Assembly (NCBI GenBank): GCA_051294905.1
Contig: CM119371.1
Location: 37,884,001-37,948,000, forward strand
Direction: 5' to 3'
Length of the DNA stretch: 64,000 bases
Origin: Botryllus schlosseri
Lineage: Eukaryota
Position 1 is the first letter of the stretch; the number at the start of each line of letters is the position of its first letter. Below the pieces are notes generated by a model. That model was not told where the DNA came from. It was given only the letters and a program-made list of their open reading frames with translations, and did not search any database. This document shows positions 4,654 to 64,000 of the stretch, one piece after another. The translations under genes and the position numbers were made by a program.

Positions 4654-5311
4654 ATTTATAGTTAACCATTCGTCATACTTTATTATGCCCCCATAGTCAG
4701 TTGTCAACAGCACACCGAAATTTGTTTTTGATTCGCCTCCTCGATTTGCGAGTAACTCATTATTCACATATATAACTGGCAAAGGTTTATGCGTATAGGG
4801 ACGTTTACATAGACAAGATTACATGATCCTTGTTGCATTGGAGTTTGTACCCGATTATTCCATTACAATTTAATACATTGTCTGCTTTCAAAGTATCCTT
4901 CTTTTTTCTTTCATCTCTTTCTCCTTTTCTCTCTGCTGGTTACGTGCCTGCGTACTGTCATCCGATGAGCCAGGGGTTGCCTAATACGTTTTTGCATTAT
5001 GATGTCTTTGAGTGAATATTTTTAAAACTATTGACAGAGACTGGAACAATGATTATGGATTGCTCCATGTTATTTGACTATATATCAACTTTTGCGATCA
5101 TTATTGCTCGCTCTTTTATGTTGGCCTAATATACTGTTTCTTTTAATTCACTGTACATGTTCTTTAGGCCAAGGGTGGGCAAACTTCGGTTGCACATGCG
5201 TTTCGCCATTTTGCTAGGGAGGTTTAACCTTATTATAAATTGTTGCATTTAATCGTGTAATAGCTTAGCAATATGTGTGTTGTTTCTTTCCTTATTATGG
5301 TTTACGCAAGA

Positions 5312-6481: not shown

Positions 6482-7704
6482 GTTTACGCAAGACTTGTAA
6501 AGTTTACTGGAAGGTGGCACAACAGGGTTAAAAATTTGCAATTGAACTCTTGAATCCAGTTCACATAACCATTTCACCCGCAACAATATATATCACTGGT
6601 CATCAATCAATGATGAATCATTGTGTTCAACAATGAACTTGATAATTAACTGCGCCAACAAAGGTCACAATCATTTCCGGGCTAGCAATGGTGAATACGG
6701 CATTATTATTTGTATTGTAAAGACTAGCAATAACTGCAGAGTTTGGCCAAGAAAATCGCGTCGAGATACCGAGCTGAAGTCTACCTTAGATTCTCATCAG
6801 CACTTGAAGCAACTGCTCCGCACTGCTTAAACGTCGCATCAGCCTGATTTCAAGCACCTTGCAGCCCATGCAGGTGGAGACGCAGTGTATCACCACACAA
6901 TAATATACTTCATTTGATAGCCTACATTTTATTGCTACTTTGTAAATTGGTATTTTTGAATTATCGTGTTGTGGCTCTATTAAAACTGAAATTTTTCGCG
7001 CATGAAGCAGGTCTGCCCACCCTGTTCTAGGCCAAGGTGTGGTATTGATTGTAAGACGAGTCCTAGTCGTTTCTACACCCTCCTATCTTTTCATTATATC
7101 AAAGTTTGTAGTTATTAAAAATGATGACATCAATAATAAACTGAATTGACTATACTTTGCCGGATAGTCCAATACCCTATGTTTAATGGTTAAGTATTTG
7201 TGAACCACCGCCCCGGCATGTTTTTTATGGCTTTCAAGCGTTGGGTCATTGGTTATCTCAATCATCAATTCTGCCATGCAAAAATGATTAGAGTAGTACT
7301 GCACTCTGCGTCATGTGTTCATTCTGATGATTTGAGGCGATTAGTGGGGAATGATTCTTTTGAGTAGCGGTAATGAAATTATGCCCTTCTTGCCACCAAG
7401 ACCTAATTTATCAACAAAAATTATACATTCAATAGTATTTACCACTGTGGGAGCCTTGAAGCCTCGATTGCTACGCACCTTGGTGGAAATGACACAGGCC
7501 TACTCGTGAAGTCGTGATCTGATCAACCTGTTGCATTGTCAAAATAGGCATGGTCAAAAAGATGTGAAATTATCTTCAATGTGATGTAGTTCCGCAGTAG
7601 CCATTGGGTATTTCAAACATCAATCCTGCGATCCAATCGTGGCAACTGATTCTCTAGCCCATTTCTTCCAAGTTTTTTCCAGATATAGGCACAATGTAGA
7701 ACTA

Positions 7705-8655
7705 ATGGCCGCGGAGCCTCGAAATTCACCGCGATATTGCCAAAGTTCACCTCTGCTAACGGAGACGCACTCGGATCTAAAAGACAGAATCAATTCTTTT
7801 GACGAGTCGTCCGACTGCAAGAACGACAATGCGCATTTTTTCTGCGGCGCCGGATCATCCGCCATCAACATCGTCCTCACGTTCCCCGTGAACAAAGTCA
7901 TGTTTCGCCAGCAATTGTTCGGATTCCGGATCCAAAAGGCAATTCAGCAGATGAGGCGCGAAGGCTTCATTCGACTATACCGCGGATTACCTGCTCCTCT
8001 TCTACAAAAATCATTGTCTACTTCGCTAATGTTTGGATTATATCATAAAAGCCATCATGTGCTGAGATATGAGTGGAGATGGAATAATACTATTGCGACG
8101 TTGAGTGCTTCTGTATTTGCTGGCACTTGTGAAGCCGTTTTAACTCCCTTCGAACGGGTGCAAGTGCTGTTACTAACCCCGAAGCACCACGGTACATTTA
8201 AAAGTACATACCACACATTGACCACATTGCACTGTTACAACTCCGGCGTGAAAGAATATTACCGCGGTCTGAGCGCGATATTAATCCGAAACGGATTTTC
8301 AAACGCCATATTTTTCGGTCTCAGAAAACCTATCAAACAACTGCTTCCAAAAGCAGACCAAGGTACCGTTAAAAATTCAGTGAACGACTTCATCAGTGGT
8401 GCCGTTATTGGCGCCATTTGCAGTACGCTGTTTTATCCTATCAATGTAATAAAGACTAGGATGCAATCTAATGTTGGCGGAGAATTTTTGTCTTTGAAGC
8501 AAACTTATATTTTGATATATAACGAACGCGGGCGAGATTTGAGGAAATTTTTCCGCGGTTGTCACGTCAACATAGCGCGTTCTTTTTTATCGTGGGGCAT
8601 CATTAACGCGTCTTTTGAAATGCTTCTGAAATTTTTTTACAATGTCAAGTCCTGA
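7705..8655 (+). CDS. SLC25A51: Mitochondrial carrier of the SLC25A51/MCART1 type (NAD+ transporter family), coding region in one exon
   Basis: TFPVNKVMFRQQLFG, LYRGLPAPLLQK, LTPFERVQVLL and FYPINVIKTRMQS carrier motifs typical of SLC25A51/52. First in-frame ATG at 7705, about 316 aa. Confidence 0.88.
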   Translation: MAAEPRNSPRYCQSSPLLTETHSDLKDRINSFDESSDCKNDNAHFFCGAGSSAINIVLTFPVNKVMFRQQLFGFRIQKAIQQMRREGFIRLYRGLPAPLLQKSLSTSLMFGLYHKSHHVLRYEWRWNNTIATLSASVFAGTCEAVLTPFERVQVLLLTPKHHGTFKSTYHTLTTLHCYNSGVKEYYRGLSAILIRNGFSNAIFFGLRKPIKQLLPKADQGTVKNSVNDFISGAVIGAICSTLFYPINVIKTRMQSNVGGEFLSLKQTYILIYNERGRDLRKFFRGCHVNIARSFLSWGIINASFEMLLKFFYNVKS

Positions 8656-8723
8656 CTGCTGCATTTTTCGAGTCGTTTCCGCCTTGAGCACAGCTGAAAC
8701 CTGTCTGGTATCGTGCTTCGATG

Positions 8724-9174
8724 CAGACTTGGACAAGTAGAATTAGACTAATTAGAGTGAAATCTCTTTGCTCTAATTCTAATCTAATTTGTGACATCTC
8801 TTTGCTCCAATTCTTATCTAATTTGTGAAATGTTTAAATTTTACTTCTAATTTATTTTCTGGTTTCTCGATAGAAGTGTGTAGTGCAAAACGATCCAAGC
8901 TTGCTGTACAGACATTTGCTATTTTCGTGCTCCCAAGAAAGAACCATGATCTAATATTAACAGAACTTGATTCAGTGCCCAAGTTTTCGCCAATTTTGTA
9001 ACTCCAATCTAATTTGAAAAAATCTGTCGCAAAAATTATAAATTTAATCTAAATTGGAAATGAATGTGTAGCTATAATTCCAGTCTTGTCATACTCTAAT
9101 TTGGAAATAAACTTTGTAGCTGTAATTCTGATCTAATTTGAAAAAGCTGGAAATTCTCTAGTTGTCCAAGTCTG
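8724..9174. mobile_element. MITE with ctaatt-rich internal repeats (uninterrupted family member)
   Basis: TIRs cagacttggacaa / ttgtccaagtctg. Relatives at 19232-35028 (split) and about 63213-63640 (reverse). Confidence 0.75.
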
Positions 9175-10811
9175 CCTTGAGATGAACTTTTGTTGCTTTG
9201 GTGCGGCACTACGCTCGCTGTGACATGGTCTCAAATTATAAGGTTGGAGTTGTGAGAAACACATTGACAACAGCTATTTCCTGAGAAAGCCACGGTATTC
9301 AAACTGCAGCTAGAAAAATTCGTGAAAGGCTGTAGGCACTATTACAGGGATCGATCAGTGGCATGTCATCAGCTGCTTCCCAGGGAAAATGGCTGCTGGA
9401 AAAAATCTTTTTGGCACCTCCAACGTTAATTTGAGACCACATCATGTTGAGAGCGTAGCGCCCCTTTAAGGTGAGAGTAATAATTTATTCAACGCCAAGT
9501 TTCAAAATTGAATAGTTCTCCTATATATAAGATTTTTGAAAATTATTCCTAGGAATTGACTTTAAATGTTTTAATATTATCGGAGCAGACGCTTGACGAG
9601 TGTTAGCCAAAATGTCCTTGTCTGTTTCAATTTAAATACTGTTCATTCAAAATTATTGTTGTGAATCAAACGAACTTTGCAACTTGAAATGAGGAAAATA
9701 TATTTGCCATTTGACTTCAATAGTATTGCTTTGCCCATGTGGATCCTGGGCCTGGAGTGACCCAAAATCATTCTTGGAAAACAGACTTGCGCTCTGATAT
9801 GTGGAGTTTTCTTGCATTTTGTTTAAACTGTGACTTTTTTGTTCTGAAACGTAGATTTTTTCCGCATCTTGGTGACCTTATTCAATGAACATACCTTCTT
9901 CATGACTGTTCGATTTTGGCTGCTCGACAGACCGGGTTACTCGGCTTGAACTGATGCCAAAAGAAGGTTCTTATGCTTGAGGGTCAATGACAGCTGTTAT
10001 TTACAAACTACTTCCAAGGAGATGAAGAATATCTAAGGTCTGAAGAGTAGCCTAGTCTAGTAGATTGTGTGTATTGTCAATAAAGACTTTCAGCATCTTA
10101 AGATGATCACCATGACAATTTCAGCTAGTAAAAATTTCCCAGACGGATTACGGTGAGCAGAGACATGATGGTGGAAAATGTAACTATGGAAGTGCAAATG
10201 AAAATATCGATTAAATAGGTGATCAAAGTACAGTTGTTGGTAGCCAAGTAGAAGTAATGTAAATTAACAATGAAGTGCATGTCGAAGTATTGATTTCCAA
10301 ATTGGTAAAAAACCGAGTATTCCAGGTAGCACGTAGTTCGGAAACATAACCACTTGAGTATTATTTTGGAAGTATGTAAAACCTAGTGGAGTACAGTAGT
10401 TCATAAAGTTGAAGTACGTCGTTGTTGACGGCCTCTGATGAATTCATACAGATTACATCAACTGTCGATTAGCCTGAAATATTCGAGACCGGGCTCTATA
10501 GAGAGTGAGTCTTTATTTTGATCCAACCAAAATACATAAGAGGTAGACAGCAATGATGGTGGCCTAGATTTCCAAAGATTGTTGACAGACTCGAGGATTC
10601 GCGTATTAACCTCAAATTCAACCCGTACTTGGGAGGGAGTTGTGTTCTCTTGGAATTTGCGTTGATCAGGTGATATTCCGACAAAATCGTCCCCGTTATG
10701 AAGCATATTTAATGTTATTATTGGATGATGGGATTACCAGTAAACCCAGCCCTCGGTAAACCCAGCCCTTGGTGAACCCGGCCCTCGGGAAATTTGGTAT
10801 TCACCGGCATC

Positions 10812-11143
10812 CCGGCAACCCTAACCCTAATATCCCACCTCCGGCAACCCTAATATCCCCCCTCCCACAACCCTAATATCCCACCTCAGGCAACCCTAAT
10901 ATCCCCCTCCCACAACCCTAATATCCCACCTCCCCGAACCCTAACATCCCATCTCCGGCAACCCTAACCCTAATATCCCACCTCCGGCAACCCTAATATC
11001 CCCCCTCCCACAACCCTAACCCTAATATCCCACCTCTGGCAACCCTAATATCCCAGCAACCCTAACCCTAATATCCCACCCCCGGCAACCCTAATATCCC
11101 CCCTCCCACAACCCTAATATCCCACCCCCGGCAACCCTAATAT
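10812..11143. repeat. Degenerate ~22-28 bp minisatellite containing telomere-like AACCCT units
   Basis: Repeated caaccctaa(ccctaa)tatccc(a/c)cctcc units. Confidence 0.9.
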
Positions 11144-12496
11144 TCACATTTTAACATTTTAACATTGGCGTCGTCGCAGATGGCTTCTTCTGGCAGACTA
11201 GATCTTGCACGCGGCAAAAATCCGTCCATTCGGGCGTTTTATCTGAATCGGGTTATCATTAATTTCATCGGACACCACAAGATTGCTATACAATGAGAAC
11301 ATAAGAAGGTTTTTAAACGGATCGGAGCATTCTTTGATATTAGTCACCCACCAGGACCTCGCCTAGATGATGTCGTTGTAGCGCACTGGCGTAGCCAGCG
11401 AGGGGCGATCGCCCCCCCCCCCAAATTTTAGGAAAATTTTTCGTAAAATCAATAAATATGACATTATTTTAGGGCAGATGACTGCAACCTAAAAAATTTC
11501 TTCGCGCTTTGCGCGATTTAGTGTCCATGATCATGACTGTCTTGATTTTATTATCGGTGTCCCGGAAAAAAATCTTCCGCAAATACCCACAATTGATTTT
11601 AGCTGCATTCTTAATTATGAGAATACAACAGTACCAGTAGATACACGAGAGTAACTCAAGGTCGTTGGGTTGATTGAGTTTAGGGTTGTCAGTTCAATAT
11701 GGGGATTGGGGACTGTTAGCTCCGACAATTCCCGTTACGGGACACACGAAGACATATAAAGTAGGTTACATGCGACTCCGCAAAGTGCGCTCCCAAAATG
11801 ATTGACCGACCGACGCATGTATTCGATATAGATTTTCTGGTACTTAAATGGCTGGCGCCTAATGATCCTGTCCCTGCAATCAGACTTCTCCGACATGAAT
11901 GCGACTGGCACAGGAAAATATCGCCACCTCCCTTTAAAAAGTGCTAATTTGAAATCGCACGAGTCTGATCAAAGGAGTTTTGTAATTAGGTCTGGTATAT
12001 ATATCAGCAATTCCAATCTCTAAACCAGCATCAATCTTTTCCAGAGGTCAGCACTAAATAACCGTGCTTCAACGAAGTAATTATTAAGAATGGAATCCAC
12101 TTGCTCATATACACGCACCAATATTATTGATCAAATACTTTGATTTACTCAAAAACATGTACGCTCCGCGCGACTAGGTCCGAAATGCACACTGCTTTTC
12201 AACTGGAAGCTTCCATAGGGTATGTGTGTGCGTGCGTCTAAGAATCGTTTGAATAAAGGGTAGTGATGAAATTGCCCATGGCAGGATGTACGGTTCTGCG
12301 AGGTGTTCCCACGGGAGAGCTTCCCTAAACTCATAAAAATCCCCCCCCCCCCCCCCGCAATAAAAAATGTAATTCTAGCTGCGACCTTGTGTGCGAGAGA
12401 TCTCTTGAGTGGTGACAGCTTTCTCCGCAAGTCATGAAGTAACAGCAATAAATGACAACTGTCCCGTCCAGCGTCCACCCTATACAAACTCTAAAT

Positions 12497-18884: not shown

Positions 18885-19705
18885 AGTCATGGTAGGGATG
18901 TCCAACTACGAATAAAGCCAAGTATTCTAGGCCTAAATAGGCTAACTGTTGAGTAGAAGTGAAAGTTGTCCAAAAACACGACCACTGGAATAAGTATAGT
19001 ACAAGTATATGCAAAACCCAGTTGAACATTCCTAACGTAGAAATACTTCGTTACTGGCGACCACTGAACAATTTATATATGAATATTACTATATCAATTC
19101 ATTCATACCACAGAATCGACATCGACTGCGATTAGCCAGAAATATTTTTGGACTTGGAGACCCCGTGGTTCAGAACAGTTTACACACTCACGGATTCGCA
19201 TATTATGATTAATTTCGACCGCAATTGATGACAGACTTGGAAAACAGGAGAATTCCGGAGCTAGATGTAGGTAATTTAATTCTAATATAGTTTATGAAAT
19301 GTTTCTATGCTCCCGTTTTCATTCTAATCTATTTACTGATTATCCTTACTCCTAATCTTACAAGAGAACTGTATGGGGCGGAAAGAGCCAAGCTCGGCGT
19401 ACATATGAGTAGTGTATGTAGGCCGATTATAGCCACCAATGAGATTACGCCACGTGTCCAGCCACGCCCACTTTCAAATTTAAATATTACCGCGCATTTT
19501 TTCAATTTTTTTTTCGGTTACTTGCCGAGAATTGAACCGAGGACCTCGCGACTCGGAAATATTACCGCGTATTTTTTTTTCTTACCCGAATTACCGCGTA
19601 TATTTTTATTTAATTTTTTTTTTATTTTTTTTACTCGAATTTCAGTGGATTATAAGAACGAATCCTTGCAGAGATATGAACCGAGGACCTCAGGACTCAG
19701 ATATG

Positions 19706-19785
19706 AAAACGCGCCTTCTCCTGGAATCGAACCGAGACCCTCATGTCTTATAGACCAGAACTGTAACCATTACACTATCGCGCTC
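19706..19785 (-). ncRNA. tRNA-like RNA polymerase III unit (left-arm copy)
   Basis: Mirror of 34427-34506. Confidence 0.5.
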
Positions 19786-19901
19786 GTTGAGAACATCCGT
19801 CTGTATTGAAGGTTTTAAAAAAGGTTGTCTAATAAGACGCAAACATTGAAAACGCATTTATTATTGTCGCCACAATCACCATTTATTTTCCGGGATATCC
19901 A

Positions 19902-20177
19902 CATGATAATATTCCCTATAATGTTTGTCATCGGAGGCGGTAAATGGCTCCGATTTAATTTCCGGCCTCAAGAAAACCGCGAGGCCACCGATTTCATTGT
20001 TCACGACTGGACGAATTTCCGCAATCCTCTCGGGCGATAACATGATAATGGTCCCTATAATGTTGCTCATCGGAGGCTGTAAATGGCTCCGATTTAAATT
20101 GTGTCGTCAAGAAAACCGCGAGACCACCGACTTCTTTACCCACGACTGGACGAATTTCCGCAATCCTCTCGGGCGAT
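19902..20177. repeat. Two-copy 139-bp tandem repeat in the left arm (mirror 34035-34310)
   Basis: catgataat...cctctcgggcgat begins at 19902 and again at 20041. Confidence 0.9.
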
Positions 20178-22840
20178 CTGCGTGATTCGTAATTCTCCAA
20201 ATAGGCTTCCAGTAGCTCATCATCATCGGATACAGGTTCGGTTTTGATTTTTACCGTGGAAAAAATTAAATCAGAGATGGCTACCGTACGCTTCCTAGCC
20301 CGCGCTCTCAATTGCAAGGCGAGGAGACGAGTGTACCATTAACATTATAGACGTACAACGAGCGATCAATGATAAGTGGCTCTGTATATCATGAGCAATA
20401 ATAAACGACGAGTGTGCCATCAACAATATAGACGCACAAACGAGCATATTTAACTAGCATTGATGCTATATCGATATGGCGCAGTATGTATAGCTGCATG
20501 CTAACCAATTCACATTTAACAATGCGACCCGCGTACAATTATGTAGCCCGATTTTCGTTGAATATTGACAACCCCAACAAATCGAATGAGCTCTTTTCCG
20601 TAGACATCTATAACACAGCTGTCAGTTCAATGGACACGAACTTGAGATTCCGTAGGGTTAAATTCCAAATCAAATAAGACCAGAGTGACTTATCTCTCTT
20701 TCAGGATTTGGACTGATGCGTCCGGCCTATGTCGCAACACTACAATATGTGGCAACACAAACCTATGTATACGTACAGTTGTTATTTGTAGTGTCATCGT
20801 CGCCCGCTGATGCGATAAACTCCCAACAGCTGACACATTCGGCTTCAATCTGATACCAGCATAATTTTTGTAGGTCGAGAATAAGGGTCTCAGGTAATTT
20901 AATTGCAACTAAAATGCCTGCGGCGGCTAATTCTGAGCTTGTTTTGGCTCGGGGGTCGGATGCAACATATGAATCCATTGGCATGGCGCACTATAGCCAA
21001 TTTAGGATGATGAGCCAAAACGCGTAGGCGAGAGAATGGAGATAATAACTAGCCTATATATTTAGAACAAATCAAGTATTGATTTCATGATAACGTATTC
21101 GTTATAACGTCATAAACATTTAGCGAGTTGTATAAGCTGCTTATCCTCAATAACCAATTTGTGGAAATTAGTGAAGAAGTGGATTGTATAGATTCTTAGA
21201 ACAGCACGAGAGTCTGGTTATAGATTTGCTGATGGTACCTGCTGACAGCATCATAACCACGCGACCTTTACTTACCCGTCAGCTAATGTCTTACTATGTA
21301 AAACATGCTTTCTGCACGTTCTTCCGTGAAGACGAACGTAATTTACTGATGTCCTAAATATTAAATTAATTCGGTTACTCTATGTGGCAGCTCATAATTT
21401 GAAATCAGCAAAGACTTCATTACATTACAAGTCTTACATTTTACGTTACTTCTTGATCGTTTCTTTACTGCAAAAAGCGTTTATATTCAACTCGTCGCAT
21501 TTTAGATTGCTTCGAGTCGTGGCGGTAGTTATGAATAAGTTAATATTGTGCCTACTGTCCAGTGCACCTATAGATGCAGAATGTACTTAACACGCGCATG
21601 GATCGCTTATTCCAAATAAATCGCTTAAAGTAACAAACGTGCTGGAGTTGTCAATCTAAAATCATATTCATGATACGAAATAAGTCATTGCCATTTTGAA
21701 TTTATGATATTTTTATAAACGACCTTTAAAAATGCGCGGGCCCCGAAGTCAGGTTATTGCACCAGCAATAAAAAAGTAACATTGTAAGTTTAATCAGGTC
21801 GATAAAATATTATATATTTTTTGTTACATTTCTTCCATATCTGCAAATATATCTTGATGCTATCGTGAGCCACTAAAATGTTGTCCGCATGCGATCCGAT
21901 AACCGTAGTTTGCTCATCCCTGGTTTTAATCATAATCTTTCAAGTAAGTTCTGTTGGTAGGCAAGCCCTACCAGGGTATATTTTGATAAATGCGGGAGTA
22001 AATCGTTATCGAGCCCCTTTCGTTAGCAACTTCTTCAGTAACACAAAATGGGTGACCAATCGCGGCCTCTCGAAATAAATGAACAGCATGCAATATGAAC
22101 AGGACATGAAGCTACGATGTCCGATAATTCCTTTCAATTAAAGTAGAAGTATAGCTATTTCCGACCGAGTAAAACGTTACTCGACATCGTGCTGTTGATA
22201 GTAGTGAGAAATGACATTCGTTTACTTTCGATAATATCCAACATACGGGCTCATGTCGGGGGCAATTTTTAGAACTCTAATATCGCATAGCCCAACTTTG
22301 CAATATTTGTCGATTTATTTAGTCATGTTTTCCTTGCAATAGCCATTCAGCATCGCGAAAATTCATAGTAGAATTTAGAATAAACTGCTACCGTTCATCA
22401 AGGTCGTTGAAAAGTACTTTTCAACGTTTAACTATCATGACATAGTAAACTTCTACTCAAGTACGAGAAGTAGCGATTGTAAGATGATTAGAAAATAAGT
22501 ATTACGGACGCAGTTTTGCCTAAAACCTAAATCACAACACGTTATCTGATCCCTTCCGAATGGCGAGATTAAATATCCCTGAAAAATGAATATTATTCAT
22601 AATATTCACATTGCTATACAAGAAATTTGCCCTGACATTGGCCATAGTGACCATTTAGAATTGGATAGTCAAGGAGTCGAAATTTCTTCGATGCGCATAG
22701 TGCACTAATTCGAGTGCTGAAATCCAATCGACTATATTTGTTATAATGATTCGAGTCGGGTAGTAAAATTTAATTAGCCAGCACTGAAATTACAGCAATA
22801 TAGTTTTACGACCGATGCGAAATTTGGTAGCCATTTCCAG

Positions 22841-23290
22841 GAATAGTAATCAATCCGAAACATTATGATAAATAGATAAGGTTGAAGAAATATAAAAATA
22901 TCATCAATGGTGTATGTATTATGAAACTGGAAATATTGTATTTGCGGTAGCCCGCGATTAGTTTCCAATTCGTAATTTCAACCGCATCGGCAGTTTTTTC
23001 ATCAAAATAAATAAACAAATACTTTGATGCTAATTTCAAAATAGCGTAAATCTCTTAATGAATTTCCCTTGAATAGTAATTAATCCGAAACATTATCATG
23101 CAAGGTCTAAGAAACATAAAAATATCATTAATGTGGTATGTATTGTGAAACAGGCAATATTTTCTTTGCGGTGATCAGAGAATATGTTCTAATTCGTAAT
23201 TTCAACCCCATCACCAGTGTCTCATAATAATGAATTAGCAAATCCTTCGATCCTAATTTTCAAAGTAGCTTAGCTTAGATCTCTGAATGA
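22841..23290. repeat. Diverged ~230-bp tandem duplication directly upstream of the Bcl-2-like gene (mirror 30922-31371)
   Basis: gaatagtaat(c/t)aatccgaaacattat at 22841 and 23071, with shared aattcgtaatttcaacc downstream. Confidence 0.75.
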
Positions 23291-23317
23291 CCTCTGACTC
23301 CCTGTTATCTTCAAACC

Positions 23318-24200
23318 ATGGAATTATTAGGAGTATCACCATCGGTCACTGAAGAAAAGGATGAAATTACATCCGGGGCATATTCCTTGGCCAGGAATTT
23401 TATCATGTACGAACTAGACTGGCCAAGCGTTAAAGCAAATACGAATGCGGAGACAACCTTACGGCGAGTTGGTGATGAAATGTTCGAGCGACATCGAACT
23501 GTCGTAAATGCAATCTCTAAACGTCTCCGATACAGTATTGTCGAAGTCGATGAAAAATATGAAAAATATTCTGCGGATGAGCGGATGTTTCTGATAATAG
23601 CTGATGAAATTTTTAAAGATACTCAAGAAAATTGGGGTCGTATTGTATCTCTGTTTGTGCTGGGTAGCATTCTTGCTCGCAAAAACGAGGAAGAGCATCA
23701 CGGTGATAATATAGAAGATATCATACAGTCAGTCGGGAATTACATCGGTAGAAGAAGACGAAAGTGGATAGGGGAAAATGGAGGATGGGTAAGCGATTTT
23801 ACATGCCCTGATAAGGACTTGGGAATTATCGTTTAGCTTGAGGTACTGTGTATCTGCTCTCGAGAGCCCATACCATCTATCGATAATGAAACTTAGCTTG
23901 CACTTCACAATTCGGTTTTCAATTCAAATTTTGTCATAAGGCACAGAAATTTACAGACCAAGCGCCCCGAGCTTTGAATTACCTAGCAAGTACGGTGACT
24001 TTCCTCTGCAAGATTAGGAACGCTTACATTTTTTTTGTTTGTTTCAGGACAGTTTTGTAGGATTTTTTGATAACGCAGCTCTCGATGATAGTAAAGTTTG
24101 GAAGAGGCTCATGTTTGTCGGAATTGGACTGACGTCTATTGCAATGGCAATAACAAGATCATGGATACTCCTTTGCCATACATCATGTAATAATTTTTAA
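23318..24200 (+). CDS. Bcl-2 family protein (multi-BH, likely pro-survival), exons 23318-23788 and 24048-24200, 207 aa
   Basis: BH3 TLRRVGDEM, BH1 NWGRIVSLFVLG, BH2 WIGENGGW|DSFV. GT-AG phase-0 intron 23789-24047 right after GGW, then a hydrophobic C-terminal tail LMFVGIGLTSIAMAI. Confidence 0.92.
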
Positions 24201-24721
24201 ATAATATATTTCTTCGCCGTTTCATTACATCAATTTTCCCTGTAGGACGGATGCAGTTTCTTCTGAGATTACATGAAAGATTGATCCATAAAACCGTCTT
24301 TATCTGGAACATTTCTATTCTTCAAATTTATCCAGCTACGTAAGGGAATTGTTAGGTTACCTAGAAAACGCCGCAGGTCATATTTGACCCAATTCCGATC
24401 ATAGTAGCGACAGGGAGTTATGACAGCTCAAAATTATCCATCTTTCGATGCCAAATATCGTTGGTTCTCCACGACCTAATATCGTGTTCTATAAATATTG
24501 TGTATATGGAGCAGATATAAATGTTGCTATTTTGTTGTTATTTACGAAGAATACTTTGCTCAGTAATTAATTTCACGGGGATTCTAAACCTCAATACATA
24601 CAAGAGAGCCAAGTTATATCAACCTGGGTTAACCTGTAGTGTTATGTAATTACCTACAATTTTATCAAGACGTAGCGAACACGATAAGTAATATGAAGTG
24701 AAGGAATAAGGGGGCCAAATT

Positions 24722-25981
24722 TCAATGTATAGATGCATATTTATGCGGGAATATCGTCCTACTGGACGAATGCAATTGTTTCCTTAAAGTTTTCCTGTCT
24801 ACGCCATTTAAGCGCGGTAAGATCAGTTTGAGTTGGCGACATTCAGGATGATATTTCACGAAGCTCTGAATGGTAGTCACATATTACCCGTGGATTCTTG
24901 TTCTATCGCTGTCACTGAGGTCGAATACCTTTAGCTGTTCATTGAATAATTGATTATTAGGCGGTTTAGATCAATTTCATAAACGAAATTTGAACTACAT
25001 TGCTTTATTGAGAACCATGAGAGAGCAGGAAATAACTTACTGTAGTGCATCGCTTCCCCATCTCTTCGGTAAGATTCCTGATTTGCAATGAAGCATCTTG
25101 CAATTACTCAGGTTGAATTCTTCAACGCGGGTTTTATGCAGGATATCAGTTGCTGTTTTGTAGCAGGAGGAAATGTCAGGATTTCTACTCAAATCCAGCG
25201 TATGCAGCTTAAACACAGTGTGATGTTCAAATATTTTACGACGCTACAAACCACTCAGTTGCTGTAACAATGATATTTATAGACGACAGAGCAATAATAT
25301 CAATTTCTGCGCCTCATCGCAAAACTGGTGTAATACAGAAATTGATGAACGTCGATAGGATTTGAAGAAACTGCCAAAACTACCATTAATATGAATGAGC
25401 GATAGAAAACCTTCCGCTCATAAGCAATATGACACTTTTTATCAGCAGATGTGATCACGAATGCCTTATTGATGGTAAATTCGCTCGCTAAATGAAATGC
25501 TATGCCTGACCTTGATAGGAATTCATATTAGTAGTACACTATGCTTGATTATTTAACTTGCAAGAAAACAAAACAGATCTAGCTAAAATGGATCACCTCA
25601 TGATTTCCGAGACCGTTATTCAACGAAGTTAATGACTGTTCATCCAATTCGCAAGCTGAAAGTCGAACTGCCTTCGTGTTATGCCTTTTCGCGAAGCGTT
25701 CGATTTCTTGCAATCCTATCGGTTCCAAATCCGTATTGTAACTTAGATCGAGTTTATCAACCTACAAAATACAGCAAATTATTCTGAACACGACACACAA
25801 AATTGTGGAAACGAGTGGCTACCTCGATTTCACCGAAACATTCAAAAGCACGAATTTCATAGGGTGTAAGGTCGCATCCTTTCATCACAAGGCTAACCGC
25901 TTTGTCTTTAGAAAATAAGGGCGGCAGTGCAGCCATACACTCTTCATTCAGACAATTATAACTGATGTCGAGATATTGGAG
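24722..25981 (-). pseudogene. Multi-exon leucine-rich-repeat (RI/NLR-like) gene remnant, left-arm copy
   Basis: Mirror of 28231-29490. Confidence 0.7.
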
Positions 25982-27088
25982 CTAAACGAATATGGGAAAC
26001 TGACAATTTACGACCATAATTAATCGGCGATGAAGACAAAGATTACAAACTTATAACAGAGAAATGTTGATTAGCCAGTCACGTCATAATAGATTAGCGA
26101 AATGTTCTGAGATTAAAATAGCACTTCCGTGATACCTCTCAAATGGACTCTTTGCAACCAGTCATAAAGAATGTGACTATTGACCACTACTCAACATAAG
26201 GAATTTCAACTTGATCATGATCCATAAGTATTGATTGAGGGTGCATCCTCTTATCACCTGTAGCATATGTGAATTATCGTGAATTCATGATCAGAAAATA
26301 AAATTATTATTCATTCTAATCAACATCCAATGTGATTTTTGTGTTGGACTATTTCAATATTTCGATAAGTCGGATAAAATGGTGATACGTGACATATATA
26401 CTCAAGCAAAAAAACTGCTCCATTACCAACACCACCGCGTATATGCCAATAACATAAGACTAAATCATGCTAGTTTGCAGAGTTTAGTCAACCATTGTAC
26501 AGTTTATGCGCTATGAGAATATCGAGTTAATCCAATTACATCATCATAAAGTTTATCCAAGAGTCAAAACTATATAATTTTCCAGTATTGTATGGACTAA
26601 ATTATTAGAAATAAACATCCAAAATGTTAAAGCTTTGGTTTTTACTTTATAAGAATAATTTTATATACTTTATTATAATCATGGTAGGGTATTTGTAATA
26701 ACGAAGGTGTTCTTTAACAACAAGCTATCTTTAATTTTATCAATAACACAAGCTAATTGATACATTTTGAAATTGACTGTAAGATATTAAGCTAATCGTC
26801 AGAGTCGACGGTGATAAAACTATTTTACTTGAGTAATATTTATCGCTACATAAATATCGTTACGCCTTCGGTGCGATGTAAATAGTTGTCTCGTGCGGCA
26901 TCCGTTGCGTGTCGTCACCCTTCGTACACCGTCGAGGAATAGGCTAGCCGGCTCCGTTGACTTGTGACTATTTGTCGTAGACTTAAGTTGTGATATTGTA
27001 AGTTTTGAGGTTCTAAGATGGGTCCGTTCTGGTAAAAAGGAGTCCGCGAATACAATAAAGAGACAATCCTGAGGATGCCGCCCGCCCC

Positions 27089-27123
27089 GCTCTGGGTTCG
27101 GGGCCAATAATAGGGATTAAATA
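27089..27123. other. 35-bp asymmetric spacer at the palindrome centre
   Basis: gctctgggttcggggccaataatagggattaaata between ...gccgcccgcccc and ggggcgggcggc... Confidence 0.95.
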
Positions 27124-28230
27124 GGGGCGGGCGGCATCCTCAGGATTGTCTCTTTATTGTATTCGCGGACTCCTTTTTACCAGAACGGACCCATCTTAGA
27201 ACCTCAAAACTTACAATATCACAACTTAAGTCTACGACAAATAGTCACAAGTCAACGGAGCCGGCTAGCCTATTCCTCGACGGTGTACGAAGGGTGACGA
27301 CACGCAACGGATGCCGCACGAGACAACTATTTACATCGCACCGAAGGCGTAACGATATTTATGTAGCGATAAATATTACTCAAGTAAAATAGTTTTATCA
27401 CCGTCGACTCTGACGATTAGCTTAATATCTTACAGTCAATTTCAAAATGTATCAATTAGCTTGTGTTATTGATAAAATTAAAGATAGCTTGTTGTTAAAG
27501 AACACCTTCGTTATTACAAATACCCTACCATGATTATAATAAAGTATATAAAATTATTCTTATAAAGTAAAAACCAAAGCTTTAACATTTTGGATGTTTA
27601 TTTCTAATAATTTAGTCCATACAATACTGGAAAATTATATAGTTTTGACTCTTGGATAAACTTTATGATGATGTAATTGGATTAACTCGATATTCTCATA
27701 GCGCATAAACTGTACAATGGTTGACTAAACTCTGCAAACTAGCATGATTTAGTCTTATGTTATTGGCATATACGCGGTGGTGTTGGTAATGGAGCAGTTT
27801 TTTTGCTTGAGTATATATGTCACGTATCACCATTTTATCCGACTTATCGAAATATTGAAATAGTCCAACACAAAAATCACATTGGATGTTGATTAGAATG
27901 AATAATAATTTTATTTTCTGATCATGAATTCACGATAATTCACATATGCTACAGGTGATAAGAGGATGCACCCTCAATCAATACTTATGGATCATGATCA
28001 AGTTGAAATTCCTTATGTTGAGTAGTGGTCAATAGTCACATTCTTTATGACTGGTTGCAAAGAGTCCATTTGAGAGGTATCACGGAAGTGCTATTTTAAT
28101 CTCAGAACATTTCGCTAATCTATTATGACGTGACTGGCTAATCAACATTTCTCTGTTATAAGTTTGTAATCTTTGTCTTCATCGCCGATTAATTATGGTC
28201 GTAAATTGTCAGTTTCCCATATTCGTTTAG

Positions 28231-29490
28231 CTCCAATATCTCGACATCAGTTATAATTGTCTGAATGAAGAGTGTATGGCTGCACTGCCGCCCTTATTTT
28301 CTAAAGACAAAGCGGTTAGCCTTGTGATGAAAGGATGCGACCTTACACCCTATGAAATTCGTGCTTTTGAATGTTTCGGTGAAATCGAGGTAGCCACTCG
28401 TTTCCACAATTTTGTGTGTCGTGTTCAGAATAATTTGCTGTATTTTGTAGGTTGATAAACTCGATCTAAGTTACAATACGGATTTGGAACCGATAGGATT
28501 GCAAGAAATCGAACGCTTCGCGAAAAGGCATAACACGAAGGCAGTTCGACTTTCAGCTTGCGAATTGGATGAACAGTCATTAACTTCGTTGAATAACGGT
28601 CTCGGAAATCATGAGGTGATCCATTTTAGCTAGATCTGTTTTGTTTTCTTGCAAGTTAAATAATCAAGCATAGTGTACTACTAATATGAATTCCTATCAA
28701 GGTCAGGCATAGCATTTCATTTAGCGAGCGAATTTACCATCAATAAGGCATTCGTGATCACGTCTGCTGATAAAAAGTGTCATATTGCTTATGAGCGGAA
28801 GGTTTTCTATCGCTCATTCATATTAATGGTAGTTTTGGCAGTTTCTTCAAATCCTATCGACGTTCATCAATTTCTGTATTACACCAGTTTTGCGATGAGG
28901 CGCAGAAATTGATATTATTGCTCTGTCGTCTATAAATATCATTGTTACAGCAACTGAGTGGTTTGTAGCGTCGTAAAATATTTGAACATCACACTGTGTT
29001 TAAGCTGCATACGCTGGATTTGAGTAGAAATCCTGACATTTCCTCCTGCTACAAAACAGCAACTGATATCCTGCATAAAACCCGCGTTGAAGAATTCAAC
29101 CTGAGTAATTGCAAGATGCTTCATTGCAAATCAGGAATCTTACCGAAGAGATGGGGAAGCGATGCACTACAGTAAGTTATTTCCTGCTCTCTCATGGTTC
29201 TCAATAAAGCAATGTAGTTCAAATTTCGTTTATGAAATTGATCTAAACCGCCTAATAATCAATTATTCAATGAACAGCTAAAGGTATTCGACCTCAGTGA
29301 CAGCGATAGAACAAGAATCCACGGGTAATATGTGACTACCATTCAGAGCTTCGTGAAATATCATCCTGAATGTTGCCAACTCAAACTGATCTTACCGCGC
29401 TTAAATGGCGTAGACAGGAAAACTTTAAGGAAACAATTGCATTCGTCCAGTAGGACGATATTCCCGCATAAATATGCATCTATACATTGA
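28231..29490 (+). pseudogene. Multi-exon leucine-rich-repeat (RI/NLR-like) gene remnant, right-arm copy
   Basis: AG/GT-bounded exons 28231-28389 (LQYLDISYNCL...LVMKGCDL), 28451-28615 (VDKLDLSYNTDL...VRLSACEL), 29005-29171 (LHTLDLSRNPDI...FNLSNCKM, 167 bp, apparent frameshift) and 29278-29490 (LKVFDLSD..., in-frame TAA at 29326). Confidence 0.7.
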
Positions 29491-30011
29491 AATTTGGCCC
29501 CCTTATTCCTTCACTTCATATTACTTATCGTGTTCGCTACGTCTTGATAAAATTGTAGGTAATTACATAACACTACAGGTTAACCCAGGTTGATATAACT
29601 TGGCTCTCTTGTATGTATTGAGGTTTAGAATCCCCGTGAAATTAATTACTGAGCAAAGTATTCTTCGTAAATAACAACAAAATAGCAACATTTATATCTG
29701 CTCCATATACACAATATTTATAGAACACGATATTAGGTCGTGGAGAACCAACGATATTTGGCATCGAAAGATGGATAATTTTGAGCTGTCATAACTCCCT
29801 GTCGCTACTATGATCGGAATTGGGTCAAATATGACCTGCGGCGTTTTCTAGGTAACCTAACAATTCCCTTACGTAGCTGGATAAATTTGAAGAATAGAAA
29901 TGTTCCAGATAAAGACGGTTTTATGGATCAATCTTTCATGTAATCTCAGAAGAAACTGCATCCGTCCTACAGGGAAAATTGATGTAATGAAACGGCGAAG
30001 AAATATATTAT

Positions 30012-30894
30012 TTAAAAATTATTACATGATGTATGGCAAAGGAGTATCCATGATCTTGTTATTGCCATTGCAATAGACGTCAGTCCAATTCCGACAAACA
30101 TGAGCCTCTTCCAAACTTTACTATCATCGAGAGCTGCGTTATCAAAAAATCCTACAAAACTGTCCTGAAACAAACAAAAAAAATGTAAGCGTTCCTAATC
30201 TTGCAGAGGAAAGTCACCGTACTTGCTAGGTAATTCAAAGCTCGGGGCGCTTGGTCTGTAAATTTCTGTGCCTTATGACAAAATTTGAATTGAAAACCGA
30301 ATTGTGAAGTGCAAGCTAAGTTTCATTATCGATAGATGGTATGGGCTCTCGAGAGCAGATACACAGTACCTCAAGCTAAACGATAATTCCCAAGTCCTTA
30401 TCAGGGCATGTAAAATCGCTTACCCATCCTCCATTTTCCCCTATCCACTTTCGTCTTCTTCTACCGATGTAATTCCCGACTGACTGTATGATATCTTCTA
30501 TATTATCACCGTGATGCTCTTCCTCGTTTTTGCGAGCAAGAATGCTACCCAGCACAAACAGAGATACAATACGACCCCAATTTTCTTGAGTATCTTTAAA
30601 AATTTCATCAGCTATTATCAGAAACATCCGCTCATCCGCAGAATATTTTTCATATTTTTCATCGACTTCGACAATACTGTATCGGAGACGTTTAGAGATT
30701 GCATTTACGACAGTTCGATGTCGCTCGAACATTTCATCACCAACTCGCCGTAAGGTTGTCTCCGCATTCGTATTTGCTTTAACGCTTGGCCAGTCTAGTT
30801 CGTACATGATAAAATTCCTGGCCAAGGAATATGCCCCGGATGTAATTTCATCCTTTTCTTCAGTGACCGATGGTGATACTCCTAATAATTCCAT
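30012..30894 (-). CDS. Bcl-2 family protein, second copy (exons 30894-30424 and 30164-30012)
   Basis: Mirror of 23318-24200. The exon 1 translation is identical in the ORF track. Confidence 0.92.
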
Positions 30895-33800
30895 GGTTTG
30901 AAGATAACAGGGAGTCAGAGGTCATTCAGAGATCTAAGCTAAGCTACTTTGAAAATTAGGATCGAAGGATTTGCTAATTCATTATTATGAGACACTGGTG
31001 ATGGGGTTGAAATTACGAATTAGAACATATTCTCTGATCACCGCAAAGAAAATATTGCCTGTTTCACAATACATACCACATTAATGATATTTTTATGTTT
31101 CTTAGACCTTGCATGATAATGTTTCGGATTAATTACTATTCAAGGGAAATTCATTAAGAGATTTACGCTATTTTGAAATTAGCATCAAAGTATTTGTTTA
31201 TTTATTTTGATGAAAAAACTGCCGATGCGGTTGAAATTACGAATTGGAAACTAATCGCGGGCTACCGCAAATACAATATTTCCAGTTTCATAATACATAC
31301 ACCATTGATGATATTTTTATATTTCTTCAACCTTATCTATTTATCATAATGTTTCGGATTGATTACTATTCCTGGAAATGGCTACCAAATTTCGCATCGG
31401 TCGTAAAACTATATTGCTGTAATTTCAGTGCTGGCTAATTAAATTTTACTACCCGACTCGAATCATTATAACAAATATAGTCGATTGGATTTCAGCACTC
31501 GAATTAGTGCACTATGCGCATCGAAGAAATTTCGACTCCTTGACTATCCAATTCTAAATGGTCACTATGGCCAATGTCAGGGCAAATTTCTTGTATAGCA
31601 ATGTGAATATTATGAATAATATTCATTTTTCAGGGATATTTAATCTCGCCATTCGGAAGGGATCAGATAACGTGTTGTGATTTAGGTTTTAGGCAAAACT
31701 GCGTCCGTAATACTTATTTTCTAATCATCTTACAATCGCTACTTCTCGTACTTGAGTAGAAGTTTACTATGTCATGATAGTTAAACGTTGAAAAGTACTT
31801 TTCAACGACCTTGATGAACGGTAGCAGTTTATTCTAAATTGTACTATGAATTTTCGCGATGCTGAATGGCTATTGCAAGGAAAACATGACTAAATAAATC
31901 GACAAATATTGCAAAGTTGGGCTATGCGATATTAGAGTTCTAAAAATTGCCCCCGACATGAGCCCGTATGTTGGATATTATCGAAAGTAAACGAATGTCA
32001 TTTCTCACTACTATCAACAGCACGATGTCGAGTAACGTTTTACTCGGTCGGAAATAGCTATACTTCTACTTTAATTGAAAGGAATTATCGGACATCGTAG
32101 CTTCATGTCCTGTTCATATTGCATGCTGTTCATTTATTTCGAGAGGCCGCGATTGGTCACCCATTTTGTGTTACTGAAGAAGTTGCTAACGAAAGGGGCT
32201 CGATAACGATTTACTCCCGCATTTATCAAAATATACCCTGGTAGGGCTTGCCTACCAACAGAACTTACTTGAAAGATTATGATTAAAACCAGGGATGAGC
32301 AAACTACGGTTATCGGATCGCATGCGGACAACATTTTAGTGGCTCACGATAGCATCAAGATATATTTGCAGATATGGATGAAATGTAACAAAAAATATAT
32401 AATATTTTATCGACCTGATTAAACTTACAATGTTACTTTTTTATTGCTGGTGCAATAACCTGACTTCGGGGCCCGCGCATTTTTAAAGGTCGTTTATAAA
32501 AATATCATAAATTCAAAATGGCAATGACTTATTTCGTATCATGAATATGATTTTAGATTGACAACTCCAGCACGTTTGTTACTTTAAGCGATTTATTTGG
32601 AATAAGCGATCCATGCGCGTGTTAAGTACATTCTGCATCTATAGGTGCACTGGACAGTAGGCACAATATTAACTTATTCATAACTACCGCCACGACTCGA
32701 AGCAATCTAAAATGCGACGAGTTGAATATAAACGCTTTTTGCAGTAAAGAAACGATCAAGAAGTAACGTAAAATGTAAGACTTGTAATGTAATGAAGTCT
32801 TTGCTGATTTCAAATTATGAGCTGCCACATAGAGTAACCGAATTAATTTAATATTTAGGACATCAGTAAATTACGTTCGTCTTCACGGAAGAACGTGCAG
32901 AAAGCATGTTTTACATAGTAAGACATTAGCTGACGGGTAAGTAAAGGTCGCGTGGTTATGATGCTGTCAGCAGGTACCATCAGCAAATCTATAACCAGAC
33001 TCTCGTGCTGTTCTAAGAATCTATACAATCCACTTCTTCACTAATTTCCACAAATTGGTTATTGAGGATAAGCAGCTTATACAACTCGCTAAATGTTTAT
33101 GACGTTATAACGAATACGTTATCATGAAATCAATACTTGATTTGTTCTAAATATATAGGCTAGTTATTATCTCCATTCTCTCGCCTACGCGTTTTGGCTC
33201 ATCATCCTAAATTGGCTATAGTGCGCCATGCCAATGGATTCATATGTTGCATCCGACCCCCGAGCCAAAACAAGCTCAGAATTAGCCGCCACAGGCATTT
33301 TAGTTGCAATTAAATTACCTGAGACCCTTATTCTCGACCTACAAAAATTATGCTGGTATCAGATTGAAGCCGAATGTGTCAGCTGTTGGGAGTTTATCGC
33401 ATCAGCGGGCGACGATGACACTACAAATAACAACTGTACGTATACATAGGTTTGTGTTGCCACATATTGTAGTGTTGCGACATAGGCCGGACGCATCAGT
33501 CCAAATCCTGAAAGAGAGATAAGTCACTCTGGTCTTATTTGATTTGGAATTTAACCCTACGGAATCTCAAGTTCGTGTCCATTGAACTGACAGCTGTGTT
33601 ATAGATGTCTACGGAAAAGAGCTCATTCGATTTGTTGGGGTTGTCAATATTCAACGAAAATCGGGCTACATAATTGTACGCGGGTCGCATTGTTAAATGT
33701 GAATTGGTTAGCATGCAGCTATACATACTGCGCCATATCGATATAGCATCAATGCTAGTTAAATATGCTCGTTTGTGCGTCTATATTGTTGATGGCACAC

Positions 33801-34426
33801 TCGTCGTTTATTATTGCTCATGATATACAGAGCCACTTATCATTGATCGCTCGTTGTACGTCTATAATGTTAATGGTACACTCGTCTCCTCGCCTTGCAA
33901 TTGAGAGCGCGGGCTAGGAAGCGTACGGTAGCCATCTCTGATTTAATTTTTTCCACGGTAAAAATCAAAACCGAACCTGTATCCGATGATGATGAGCTAC
34001 TGGAAGCCTATTTGGAGAATTACGAATCACGCAGATCGCCCGAGAGGATTGCGGAAATTCGTCCAGTCGTGGGTAAAGAAGTCGGTGGTCTCGCGGTTTT
34101 CTTGACGACACAATTTAAATCGGAGCCATTTACAGCCTCCGATGAGCAACATTATAGGGACCATTATCATGTTATCGCCCGAGAGGATTGCGGAAATTCG
34201 TCCAGTCGTGAACAATGAAATCGGTGGCCTCGCGGTTTTCTTGAGGCCGGAAATTAAATCGGAGCCATTTACCGCCTCCGATGACAAACATTATAGGGAA
34301 TATTATCATGTGGATATCCCGGAAAATAAATGGTGATTGTGGCGACAATAATAAATGCGTTTTCAATGTTTGCGTCTTATTAGACAACCTTTTTTAAAAC
34401 CTTCAATACAGACGGATGTTCTCAAC

Positions 34427-34506
34427 GAGCGCGATAGTGTAATGGTTACAGTTCTGGTCTATAAGACATGAGGGTCTCGGTTCGATTCCAGGAGAAGGCG
34501 CGTTTT
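34427..34506 (+). ncRNA. tRNA-like RNA polymerase III unit (right-arm copy), not a canonical tRNA
   Basis: A box TAGTGTAATGG, B box GGTTCGATTCC and TTTT at 34503-34506. D-arm-like hairpin tgtaa-tgg-ttaca, but poor anticodon and T stems. Confidence 0.5.
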
Positions 34507-35212
34507 CATATCTGAGTCCTGAGGTCCTCGGTTCATATCTCTGCAAGGATTCGTTCTTATAATCCACTGAAATTCGAGTAAAAAAAATAAAAAAAAAATT
34601 AAATAAAAATATACGCGGTAATTCGGGTAAGAAAAAAAAATACGCGGTAATATTTCCGAGTCGCGAGGTCCTCGGTTCAATTCTCGGCAAGTAACCGAAA
34701 AAAAAATTGAAAAAATGCGCGGTAATATTTAAATTTGAAAGTGGGCGTGGCTGGACACGTGGCGTAATCTCATTGGTGGCTATAATCGGCCTACATACAC
34801 TACTCATATGCTTGCCATTCGCACACTGATGAGAATGAACTTTGGTTTGATATTAACTGAACGTGATTTTAGTCGCATTTCTCCATATTGTTCGAAAATG
34901 AATACGATTTCCCATTTTCGCGCAAATCCAGTAATTCCAGCTCTAAATAATCAGGGGAAATGTGTAGCTATATTTCCAATGCTAATCTAATTAGGAAATG
35001 CTGAAACTTTAATAGCTGTCCAGTTCTGCTTAGTGAGGCGCTCTGTTCTCTTTCCATTCGCGTCGATCGCTTGATATTCGGAGGACATTTTCTCTGATTC
35101 GAAGCAAATTCATCGATGTTCTCGATATTGAAGGCGTTCAAATTTCTTCGCACTATCATCGCAGATAGTTTCTGACAGACTCAATCTTTTATGCGGATAT
35201 ATCCACTAATAA

Positions 35213-52971: not shown

Positions 52972-64000
<11,029 letters not shown>

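What the first reader, a model, noticed from the sequence alone, without database searches (positions are those of the whole stretch)
19388..34870. Internal empty-site evidence that exactly 6 bp were duplicated on insertion
CATATG is itself palindromic, so it could be just part of the inverted repeat. But joining the flanks with one CATATG gives ccaagctcggcgta-catatg-cttgccattcgcacactgatgagaatgaactttggtttgatattaactgaac. This aligns without gaps to the uninterrupted MITE relative at 8895: ccaagcttgctgta-cagaca-tttgctattttcgtgctcccaagaaagaaccatgatctaatattaacagaac. The palindrome is therefore a clean insertion into an older MITE with a 6-bp TSD. That implies integrase-type insertion and argues against breakage-fusion or misassembly.
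Basis: seen in the sequence. Interest (0 to 1): 0.7.

Follow-up and report, generated by a model that had tools for sequence, protein, structure and literature searches.

The report
Giant palindrome inserted into old MITE
A 15.4-kb mirror-image mobile element with Maverick/Polinton-type ends and a cell-survival (Bcl-2) gene has inserted cleanly into an older small transposon; the empty site shows one extra copy of a 6-base word, but because that word is itself a palindrome it is the element's end letters, not the empty site alone, that make a 6-base target duplication the likely reading.

Summary
The two flanks are adjacent halves of one older MITE-like element, and against the relative at 8895 they sit exactly 6 bp apart (15 of 15 block sizes). 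The other two relatives are less clear (best single fits 12 and 0), but pooled scores favour 6. The inference is only partly right: CATATG is palindromic, so a 6-bp empty core fits a duplication of 6, 4, 2 or 0 bp equally (about 73/14/12/1%). What favours 6 is the published Maverick end motif (AGT)2//(ACT)2 starting exactly at 19408. The insert is a 15,397-bp palindrome (arms differ at 5 of 7,687 positions, 35-nt loop) with a two-exon Bcl-2 gene, LRR-like exons and no Pfam match to Maverick core genes. Contigs of one sample support the left junction and many related copies. Best reading: a non-autonomous, fold-back Maverick derivative inserted by a helper's integrase; breakage-fusion is unlikely. 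No empty allele or second copy could be read. This scan has already noted such palindromes many times elsewhere in this genome (unchecked notes); I found none in print.

The parts
19232..19401 (+). Left part of the interrupted MITE-like element (5' inverted repeat begins CAGACTTGG)
   Evidence: aligns to relatives at 8720, 63589 and 61804
19402..19407 (.). Left CATATG; probable target-site duplication, palindromic
   Evidence: ambiguity of split
19408..27088 (+). Left arm of the palindromic element (7,681 bp), starting with the (AGT)2 end motif at 19408-19413
   Evidence: motif as in PMC8097293
23318..24200 (+). Two-exon Bcl-2-family gene (exon 1 23318-23788, GT-AG intron, exon 2 24048-24200; 207 aa, open)
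   Evidence: Pfam Bcl-2 E 1.2e-22; splice and frame; PDB Mcl-1/Bcl-2 at E about 2e-9
25040..25981 (-). LRR-like exons reading outward from the centre; gene not fully modelled
   Evidence: weak Pfam LRR_1 (E 0.0033 and 0.036, both below the curated cut-off); splice-like borders
27089..27123 (.). 35-nt unpaired centre (loop of the hairpin)
27124..34804 (-). Right arm, mirror of the left with 5 substitutions and no indel; ends ACTACT at 34799-34804
28231..29172 (+). Mirror copy of the LRR-like exons
30012..30894 (-). Mirror copy of the Bcl-2 gene (none of the 5 arm differences lies in its coding exons)
34805..34810 (.). Right CATATG; probable target-site duplication
34811..35028 (+). Right part of the interrupted MITE-like element (decayed 3' inverted repeat)
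8724..9174 (+).
63233..63659 (-). Uninterrupted relative 2 (4-nt indel just past the junction)
61601..61864 (-). Partial relative 3 (closest on the left side, 14/15 next to the junction)

Best explanation
A 15,397-bp non-autonomous Maverick/Polinton derivative (19408-34804) was inserted recently into an old MITE-like element with a 6-bp staggered cut, duplicating CATATG, which is palindromic by chance (1.8% of hexamers here) or by a mild palindromic target preference. SHOWN: flank continuity with a 6-bp core; near-perfect whole-length palindrome; (AGT)2//(ACT)2 ends; Bcl-2 gene; no Pfam match to core genes; many related sequences in the sample. INFERRED: the split of the core as a 6-bp duplication (about 0.93 on its own); insertion by the retroviral-type integrase of an autonomous Maverick acting in trans; origin of the palindrome by fold-back (template switch) during protein-primed copying of one end, so that both ends carry the same origin and integrase site; arms made identical at each round of copying, then drifting after insertion.
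For: Empty-site register of 6. End motif identical to the commonest vertebrate Maverick motif, which goes with perfect 6-bp duplications (PMC8097293 passages); such a motif stands at 31 of 48,591 positions outside the element, which moves the four-way split to over 99% for 6 bp if one assumes the motif in half of Mavericks (my assumption). It is the only pair of such motifs in the window with both inverted ends and a 6-bp direct flank. Length is inside the 13-25 kb Polinton range (10.1101/2023.08.22.554363 passage). Bcl-2 homologues occur in adintovirus-type Polintons (PMC8502044 passage) and intron-bearing cargo lies next to one TIR in nematode Mavericks (10.1101/2022.07.12.499685 passage). 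Arms are 99.93% alike whereas deep contigs of related sequence are 93-97% alike to this copy at depth 2,571-3,006 against 47-54 for the flank (run X2). Target motifs of TIR and LTR elements are palindromic at family level (PMC3276498 passages).
Against: No second copy with its flanks could be read: no genome was held, 0 matches in metagenomes, 1 chance match in viral contigs. No helper Maverick and no sequence likeness to one was shown here. The duplicated hexamer is palindromic, which is uncommon (882 of 48,586) and leaves other splits open. Two of three relatives do not individually give 6 as best fit. The arms are 7,681 bp against 100-1,500 bp TIRs in known Polintons. The centre of this copy is not bridged by any of the 32 contig pieces shown (of 10,739).
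Confidence: 0.8

Rival explanations
1. A circular inverted dimer (replicated hairpin-ended DNA, or a Maverick end-to-end circle whose junction is a perfect palindrome around CATATG) recombined into a chromosomal CATATG. The hexamer then flanks the insert twice without any staggered cut.
For: Closing the element on one CATATG gives a perfect palindromic junction. The empty site looks the same under this model. Inverted extrachromosomal intermediates that re-integrate are described in yeast (PMC10766183 abstract); a circular Maverick form is mentioned in nematodes.
Against: Needs the target to be exactly CATATG (0.02% of sites) or a site-specific recombinase, and none is encoded. Homology ends at the hexamer (6 of 20 outward positions pair).
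Confidence: 0.06
2. The element is one to three bases longer at each end and was inserted by another transposase with a 4-, 2- (TA) or 0-bp duplication.
For: All give the same 6-bp empty core and the same profile score; together 27% on chance alone.
Against: The Maverick end motif would then sit at 19408 by chance (0.06% of positions). The implied ends GAGTAG and TGAGTA do not fit the TGTNR ends of Ginger elements (PMC2836005 passages). No transposase match in 71 frames.
Confidence: 0.05
3. The insertion and its ends are real, but the inside is misassembled: an element with ordinary TIRs and a unique middle was folded into a palindrome.
For: The empty site does not test the inside. No contig shown bridges this copy's centre; one deep contig (run X2, depth 499) follows 26912-27123 and its last 14 letters do not lie on the right arm.
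Against: Arms differ by 5 substitutions and no indel although they hold 6 single-base runs of 7 or more; 3 of the 5 are transitions at CpG (P 2.5e-4 to 6e-3), more like mutation than read error. Caveat: the window is not CpG-depleted (o/e 1.05-1.23). The left-junction contig ends at 19431 in 4 of 4 runs, where the first 31-mer shared with the right junction begins.
Confidence: 0.07
4. Breakage-fusion-bridge or replication fold-back of local chromosomal DNA.
For: Whole-length palindrome with a short loop is the usual product of such events (PMC10766183 abstract).
Against: The flanks are neighbours in one MITE, so nothing was lost or mirrored locally; the arms match nothing else in the window except 260 bp at 68%; the arms belong to a multi-copy family.
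Confidence: 0.02

Closest known systems
Maverick/Polinton elements with 5'-(AGT)2//(ACT)2-3' ends (Barreat and Katzourakis 2021, PMC8097293, passages read; anole element in PMC3014272, passages read)
   Same: End motif at both termini, 6-bp direct flanks, length in range, inverted termini.
   Different: No Pfam match to pPolB, integrase, ATPase, protease or capsid in 71 frames; inverted repeat covers 99.8% of the element instead of 0.1-1.5 kb; intron-bearing host-type genes.
Adintovirus-type Polintons with Bcl-2 homologues (Starrett et al. 2021, PMC8502044, passages read) and nematode Mavericks with intron-bearing cargo next to the left TIR (10.1101/2022.07.12.499685, passages read)
   Same: Anti-apoptotic or host-type cargo near one end.
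   Different: Here the cargo end is all there is, mirrored; those elements keep core genes.
[quoted passage not shown]
   Same: Palindromes in an integrated Polinton-related element, with a hairpin-primed copying model proposed.
   Different: Those palindromes are about 52 nt, at the termini, in gene-carrying elements of a protist; here the whole element is one palindrome with a central loop.
Snap-back / copy-back defective viral genomes (search listing and abstract start of PMC6140465 only; DNA-virus analogues recalled)
   Same: One terminus copied back on itself so that both ends carry the same replication signal; helper dependence.
   Different: Described for RNA viruses and not as integrated, multi-copy germline elements; an analogy of mechanism, not membership.
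Ginger1/Ginger2 integrase-like DNA transposons (PMC2836005, passages read)
   Same: Retroviral-type integrase chemistry; Ginger2 prefers palindromic AT-rich hexamers (RTATAY).
   Different: TGTNR ends and 4-bp duplications; no split of the junction here gives both.

Membership tests
Maverick/Polinton (autonomous) | (AGT)2//(ACT)2, (AG)3//(CT)3 or (AC)3A end motif | tested here: met
   AGTAGT at 19408, ACTACT at 34799-34804; motif
Maverick/Polinton (autonomous) | 6-bp (5-8 bp) target-site duplication | tested here: inconclusive
   6-bp direct repeat and 6-bp empty core are present, but the palindromic hexamer allows 0, 2, 4 or 6; 6 is favoured through the end motif, which is not independent of the family assignment
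Maverick/Polinton (autonomous) | Terminal inverted repeats of 100-1,500 bp around a unique interior | tested here: not met
   arms 7,681 bp, interior 35 bp; range
Maverick/Polinton (autonomous) | pPolB, integrase, ATPase, protease and capsid genes | tested here: not met
   0 of 71 stop-to-stop frames of 42 aa or more in the left arm match such Pfam families at E 0.05; longest frame 181 aa
Maverick/Polinton (autonomous) | Length 13-25 kb | tested here: met
   15,397 bp; range
Non-autonomous Maverick derivative | Terminal sequence shared with an autonomous Maverick of the same genome | not testable with these tools
   no genome held; claimed only in unchecked earlier notes
Non-autonomous Maverick derivative | Dispersed copies | tested here: inconclusive
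   contigs 88-100% alike cover all 30 bins at depths far above the flank, but no second insertion site was read and the tool's depth is no copy number
Ginger transposons | TGTNR ends with 4-bp duplication | tested here: not met
   possible starts are AGTAGT, GAGTAG, TGAGTA, ATGAGT; definition
Penelope-like head-to-head insertion | Reverse transcriptase / GIY-YIG coding sequence in the arms | tested here: not met
   no such Pfam match in 71 frames; family features recalled
MITE (interrupted host element) | Short, non-coding, terminal inverted repeats, several copies | tested here: met
   about 400-450 bp, inverted ends clear in the 8724 copy, 4 copies in the window
MITE (interrupted host element) | Own target-site duplication and superfamily | tested here: inconclusive
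   8-bp flanks are not identical in either copy looked at

The most novel reading that the evidence does not exclude
A self-perpetuating class of Maverick satellites that exist as a half-genome with one protein-primed end and one covalently closed hairpin end, are copied into a full palindrome of about capsid-genome length, are inserted by the helper's integrase with 6-bp duplications, keep their arms identical at each cycle, and carry intact host-type anti-apoptotic and LRR genes transcribed from both arms. This copy, with a 35-nt loop, would be the tightest form, possibly re-folded from a parent with a longer centre.
Probability: 0.35. Interest if true: 0.8.

Novelty: new variant of a known kind. 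Interest (0 to 1): 0.5.

Why it matters
A 6-bp duplication is ordinary for Mavericks; the value of this site is that it shows a 15-kb, nearly loop-less palindrome arriving as one unit by clean insertion, not by chromosome breakage. If the fold-back reading is right, such elements are footprints of how Mavericks copy themselves, a step that has so far been modelled from sequence only, and they make it testable: arms should be identical at insertion, ends should match a resident helper, and hairpin half-molecules should exist outside chromosomes. It is also a caution on method: a palindromic flanking word cannot by itself give the duplication length, even with an empty site.

Tried and rejected
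Whole-genome tally of copies and MITE consensus: no genome held. Terminal pattern in metagenome contigs: 0 matches; Bcl-2 protein there: 109 pattern hits, 0 confirmed. Terminal pattern in viral contigs: 1 match, 17 nt only, no further likeness, chance. Earlier findings by sequence: none for the terminus or Bcl-2 exon. Protein search: 2 relatives of 33 candidates, 57-60% identical, without context. Sequencing runs: 4 of 7 listed hold the stretch, all one sample and possibly the source of the assembly, so not independent; no RNA run. Laying contigs on 18900-27160 showed 32 of 10,739 pieces and 24 of 1,077 loose ends; none shown lies at 19401-19408, so neither an empty allele nor other copies' flanks could be read, and absence there means nothing. 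Other inverted-repeat elements in the window do not have Maverick ends. An uneven 4-base core scored only 0.3 bit below 6 in the profile; rejected because it needs unequal element ends and no duplication. A paper for an adenovirus analogue of inverted-repeat-driven palindromic genomes was sought and not found in usable form; that analogy is left out. Supplements of PMC8097293 (end-motif logos) and PMC8502044 (Bcl-2 maps) were not seen and may bear on the comparison.
Full report
What is there. Positions 19402-27088 and 27124-34810 are inverted copies with 5 differences in 7,687 positions, no indel, and a 35-nt unpaired centre. The outermost six bases of each arm are CATATG; beyond them pairing falls to 6 of 20 positions. 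Inside the hexamers the sequence begins AGTAGT (19408) and ends ACTACT (34804), a span of 15,397 bp. The left arm holds an open two-exon Bcl-2-family gene (Pfam E 1.2e-22; GT-AG intron and 207-aa frame; nearest solved relatives Mcl-1 and Bcl-2 at E about 2e-9) and LRR-like exons with weak, sub-threshold Pfam scores. None of 71 frames of 42 aa or more matches a polymerase, integrase, ATPase, protease, capsid, transposase or reverse transcriptase family.

The empty-site observation. Placing left and right blocks separately on that relative gives a spacing of 6 in 15 of 15 block-size pairs. The joined flanks align across the junction to two relatives (E 1.7e-19 and 6.7e-11), against 3 of 600 random joins. 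A profile of three relatives finds the two flanks independently at abutting model positions in register for one hexamer. Against this: the second relative gives 9-10 because of a nearby 4-nt indel, the third cannot be anchored on the right, and their single best gapped fits are 12 and 0; only the sum picks 6, in 3 of 3 gap settings. With real bases the 6-bp core scores 107.4 bits against 104.7 for the next symmetric option and about 102 for 0 or 12, and wins in 3 of 3 leave-one-out profiles by 1.3-2.2 bits. So the flanks are surely one interrupted element, and a 6-bp core is the best but modestly resolved estimate, resting mostly on one paralogue.

What the empty site does not show. It fixes the sum of element length and duplication. 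Because CATATG reads the same on both strands, part of each hexamer can be given to the element without breaking its perfect inverted ends: duplications of 6, 4, 2 (TA) and 0 bp all leave the same empty core. Counting the coincidences each needs in this window gives about 73, 14, 12 and 1%. Recombination of a circular inverted dimer into a chromosomal CATATG would look the same too.

What does favour 6. A motif of that set stands at 31 of 48,591 positions outside the element. With an assumed 0.5 for the motif in a Maverick, the 6-bp split rises above 99% among the four; allowing for the recombination rival I put it near 0.93. Family-level target motifs of TIR and LTR elements are palindromic (PMC3276498, passages), which lessens the oddity of the hexamer. 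Ginger elements do not fit any split (PMC2836005, passages).

Is it real? Three of the five arm differences are transitions at CpG (P 2.5e-4 to 6e-3) and six long single-base runs have equal length in both arms; the window is not CpG-depleted, which weakens a methylation reading. In contigs of four runs of one sample, possibly the assembly's own source, one 278-nt contig covers 19154-19431 without a difference in 4 of 4 runs at single-allele depth. It reaches only 24 nt into the element, short of the tool's 31-letter rule for bridging, but it stops at the last 31-mer that is single-copy in the window, as expected if the right junction also exists (word length of the assembly recalled). A second allele with 19 other letters and 13 gap positions is seen at 18900-19168 at like depth, so the insertion is probably on one haplotype only (inference: the arms are far more alike than the alleles). 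The empty allele was not among the rows shown. Related sequence covers all 30 bins; in run X2 contigs 93-97% alike reach depth 2,571-3,006 against 47-54 for the flank, which suggests tens of related copies, although the tool's depth is no copy number. One contig (X2, depth 499) follows 26912-27123 and its last 14 letters do not lie on this copy's right arm: a single-row hint that relatives run on beyond the loop and that this copy's centre is a secondary fold-back point; it also means this copy's centre is not confirmed.

Mechanism. Shown: a clean insertion of a whole-length palindrome with Maverick-type ends and host-type cargo into an old MITE-like element. Inferred: a helper Maverick's retroviral-type integrase made the insertion (Polintons encode pPolB and such an integrase: PMC6431247, passages); the palindrome arose when copying from one end folded back, giving two identical ends; arms are identical at insertion and drift afterwards. 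Breakage-fusion or local fold-back (PMC10766183, abstract) is unlikely, since the flanks are neighbours and the arms are not local DNA.

Relation to what is known. It is not an autonomous Maverick: two defining features were tested and not met (core genes; TIR 100-1,500 bp, 10.1101/2023.08.22.554363, passage). It works like a helper-dependent derivative; shared ends with a resident helper could not be tested. Bcl-2 homologues are reported in adintoviruses (PMC8502044, passage), intron-bearing cargo in nematode Mavericks (10.1101/2022.07.12.499685, passages), short terminal palindromes in protist virophages and PLVs (10.64898/2026.07.28.741278, section 7); the anole survey saw no non-autonomous Polintons (PMC3014272, passages). 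I found no description of whole-element palindromic Mavericks in searches; several listed only part of their hits (29 of 31, 25 of 63, 15 of 90, 15 of 327), I judged most by title and abstract start, and subscription papers and Repbase are not covered. Kapitonov and Jurka 2006 was not read.

Earlier scan notes describe many 11-18 kb palindromes with Maverick ends elsewhere in this genome, some with Bcl-2 and several with a stated 6-bp duplication, and put the family at hundreds of copies. They are unchecked; they changed my reading from a single event to a family and gave the word 'satellite' and two papers. I confirmed only that related sequence is abundant.

Verdict. Observation confirmed; interpretation partly supported. 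The 6-bp duplication is likely and is the ordinary signature of Mavericks; the unusual thing is the element it brackets. New variant of a known kind; interest 0.5.

Noticed in passing
window 27070-27142: The centre holds GC-box-like (GGGGCGGG) and CCAAT-like words (motifs recalled), and the LRR-like exons read outward from it in both arms; it could act as a two-way promoter.
   Followed up: no
window 19530-19790 and mirror 34427-34497: The subterminal region has a tRNA/SINE-like piece 61% alike to repeats at 1350 and 14242 (D20) and several short copies of a T-arm-like word next to it.
   Followed up: no
window 19901-20177 and 22841-23290: Internal tandem duplications in each arm (138 bp at 88%; about 220 bp at 76%, just upstream of the Bcl-2 start).
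   Followed up: no
window 20942-21203: A 260-bp piece of the arm is 68% alike to 50983-51256 outside the element, probably an old host repeat carried in both arms.
   Followed up: partly
window 18900-19168: Two alleles at equal depth differ by 19 letters and 13 gap positions in 269 bp in 4 of 4 runs: very high local heterozygosity.
   Followed up: partly
window 19406-19407: All three MITE relatives have CA where the target has TG; an ancestral CpG decaying both ways would explain it (inference).
   Followed up: no
window 5308-6457: A 1.15-kb element with about 280-bp inverted arms (95-98%) encloses a 205-aa frame (5559-6176) with a GIY-YIG-like motif as in Penelope endonucleases (motif recalled).
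   Followed up: no
window 10786-11166: A 23-bp minisatellite built around the telomere-like word CCCTAA (D1).
   Followed up: no
window 7585-8655: An intronless 356-aa frame that looks like a mitochondrial carrier (SLC25 type; likeness recalled, not searched) directly upstream of the MITE relative.
   Followed up: no
window 37300-63800: A dense family of GACTCGAGTC-rich inverted-repeat elements with many copies in both orientations; a gelsolin/villin-like exon lies among them at 56894-57361 (likeness recalled).
   Followed up: no
P0001, P0002: Two Bcl-2 relatives (57-60% identical) from assembled runs also run off-frame right after the GGW motif, suggesting the same intron; their context is unknown.
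   Followed up: no
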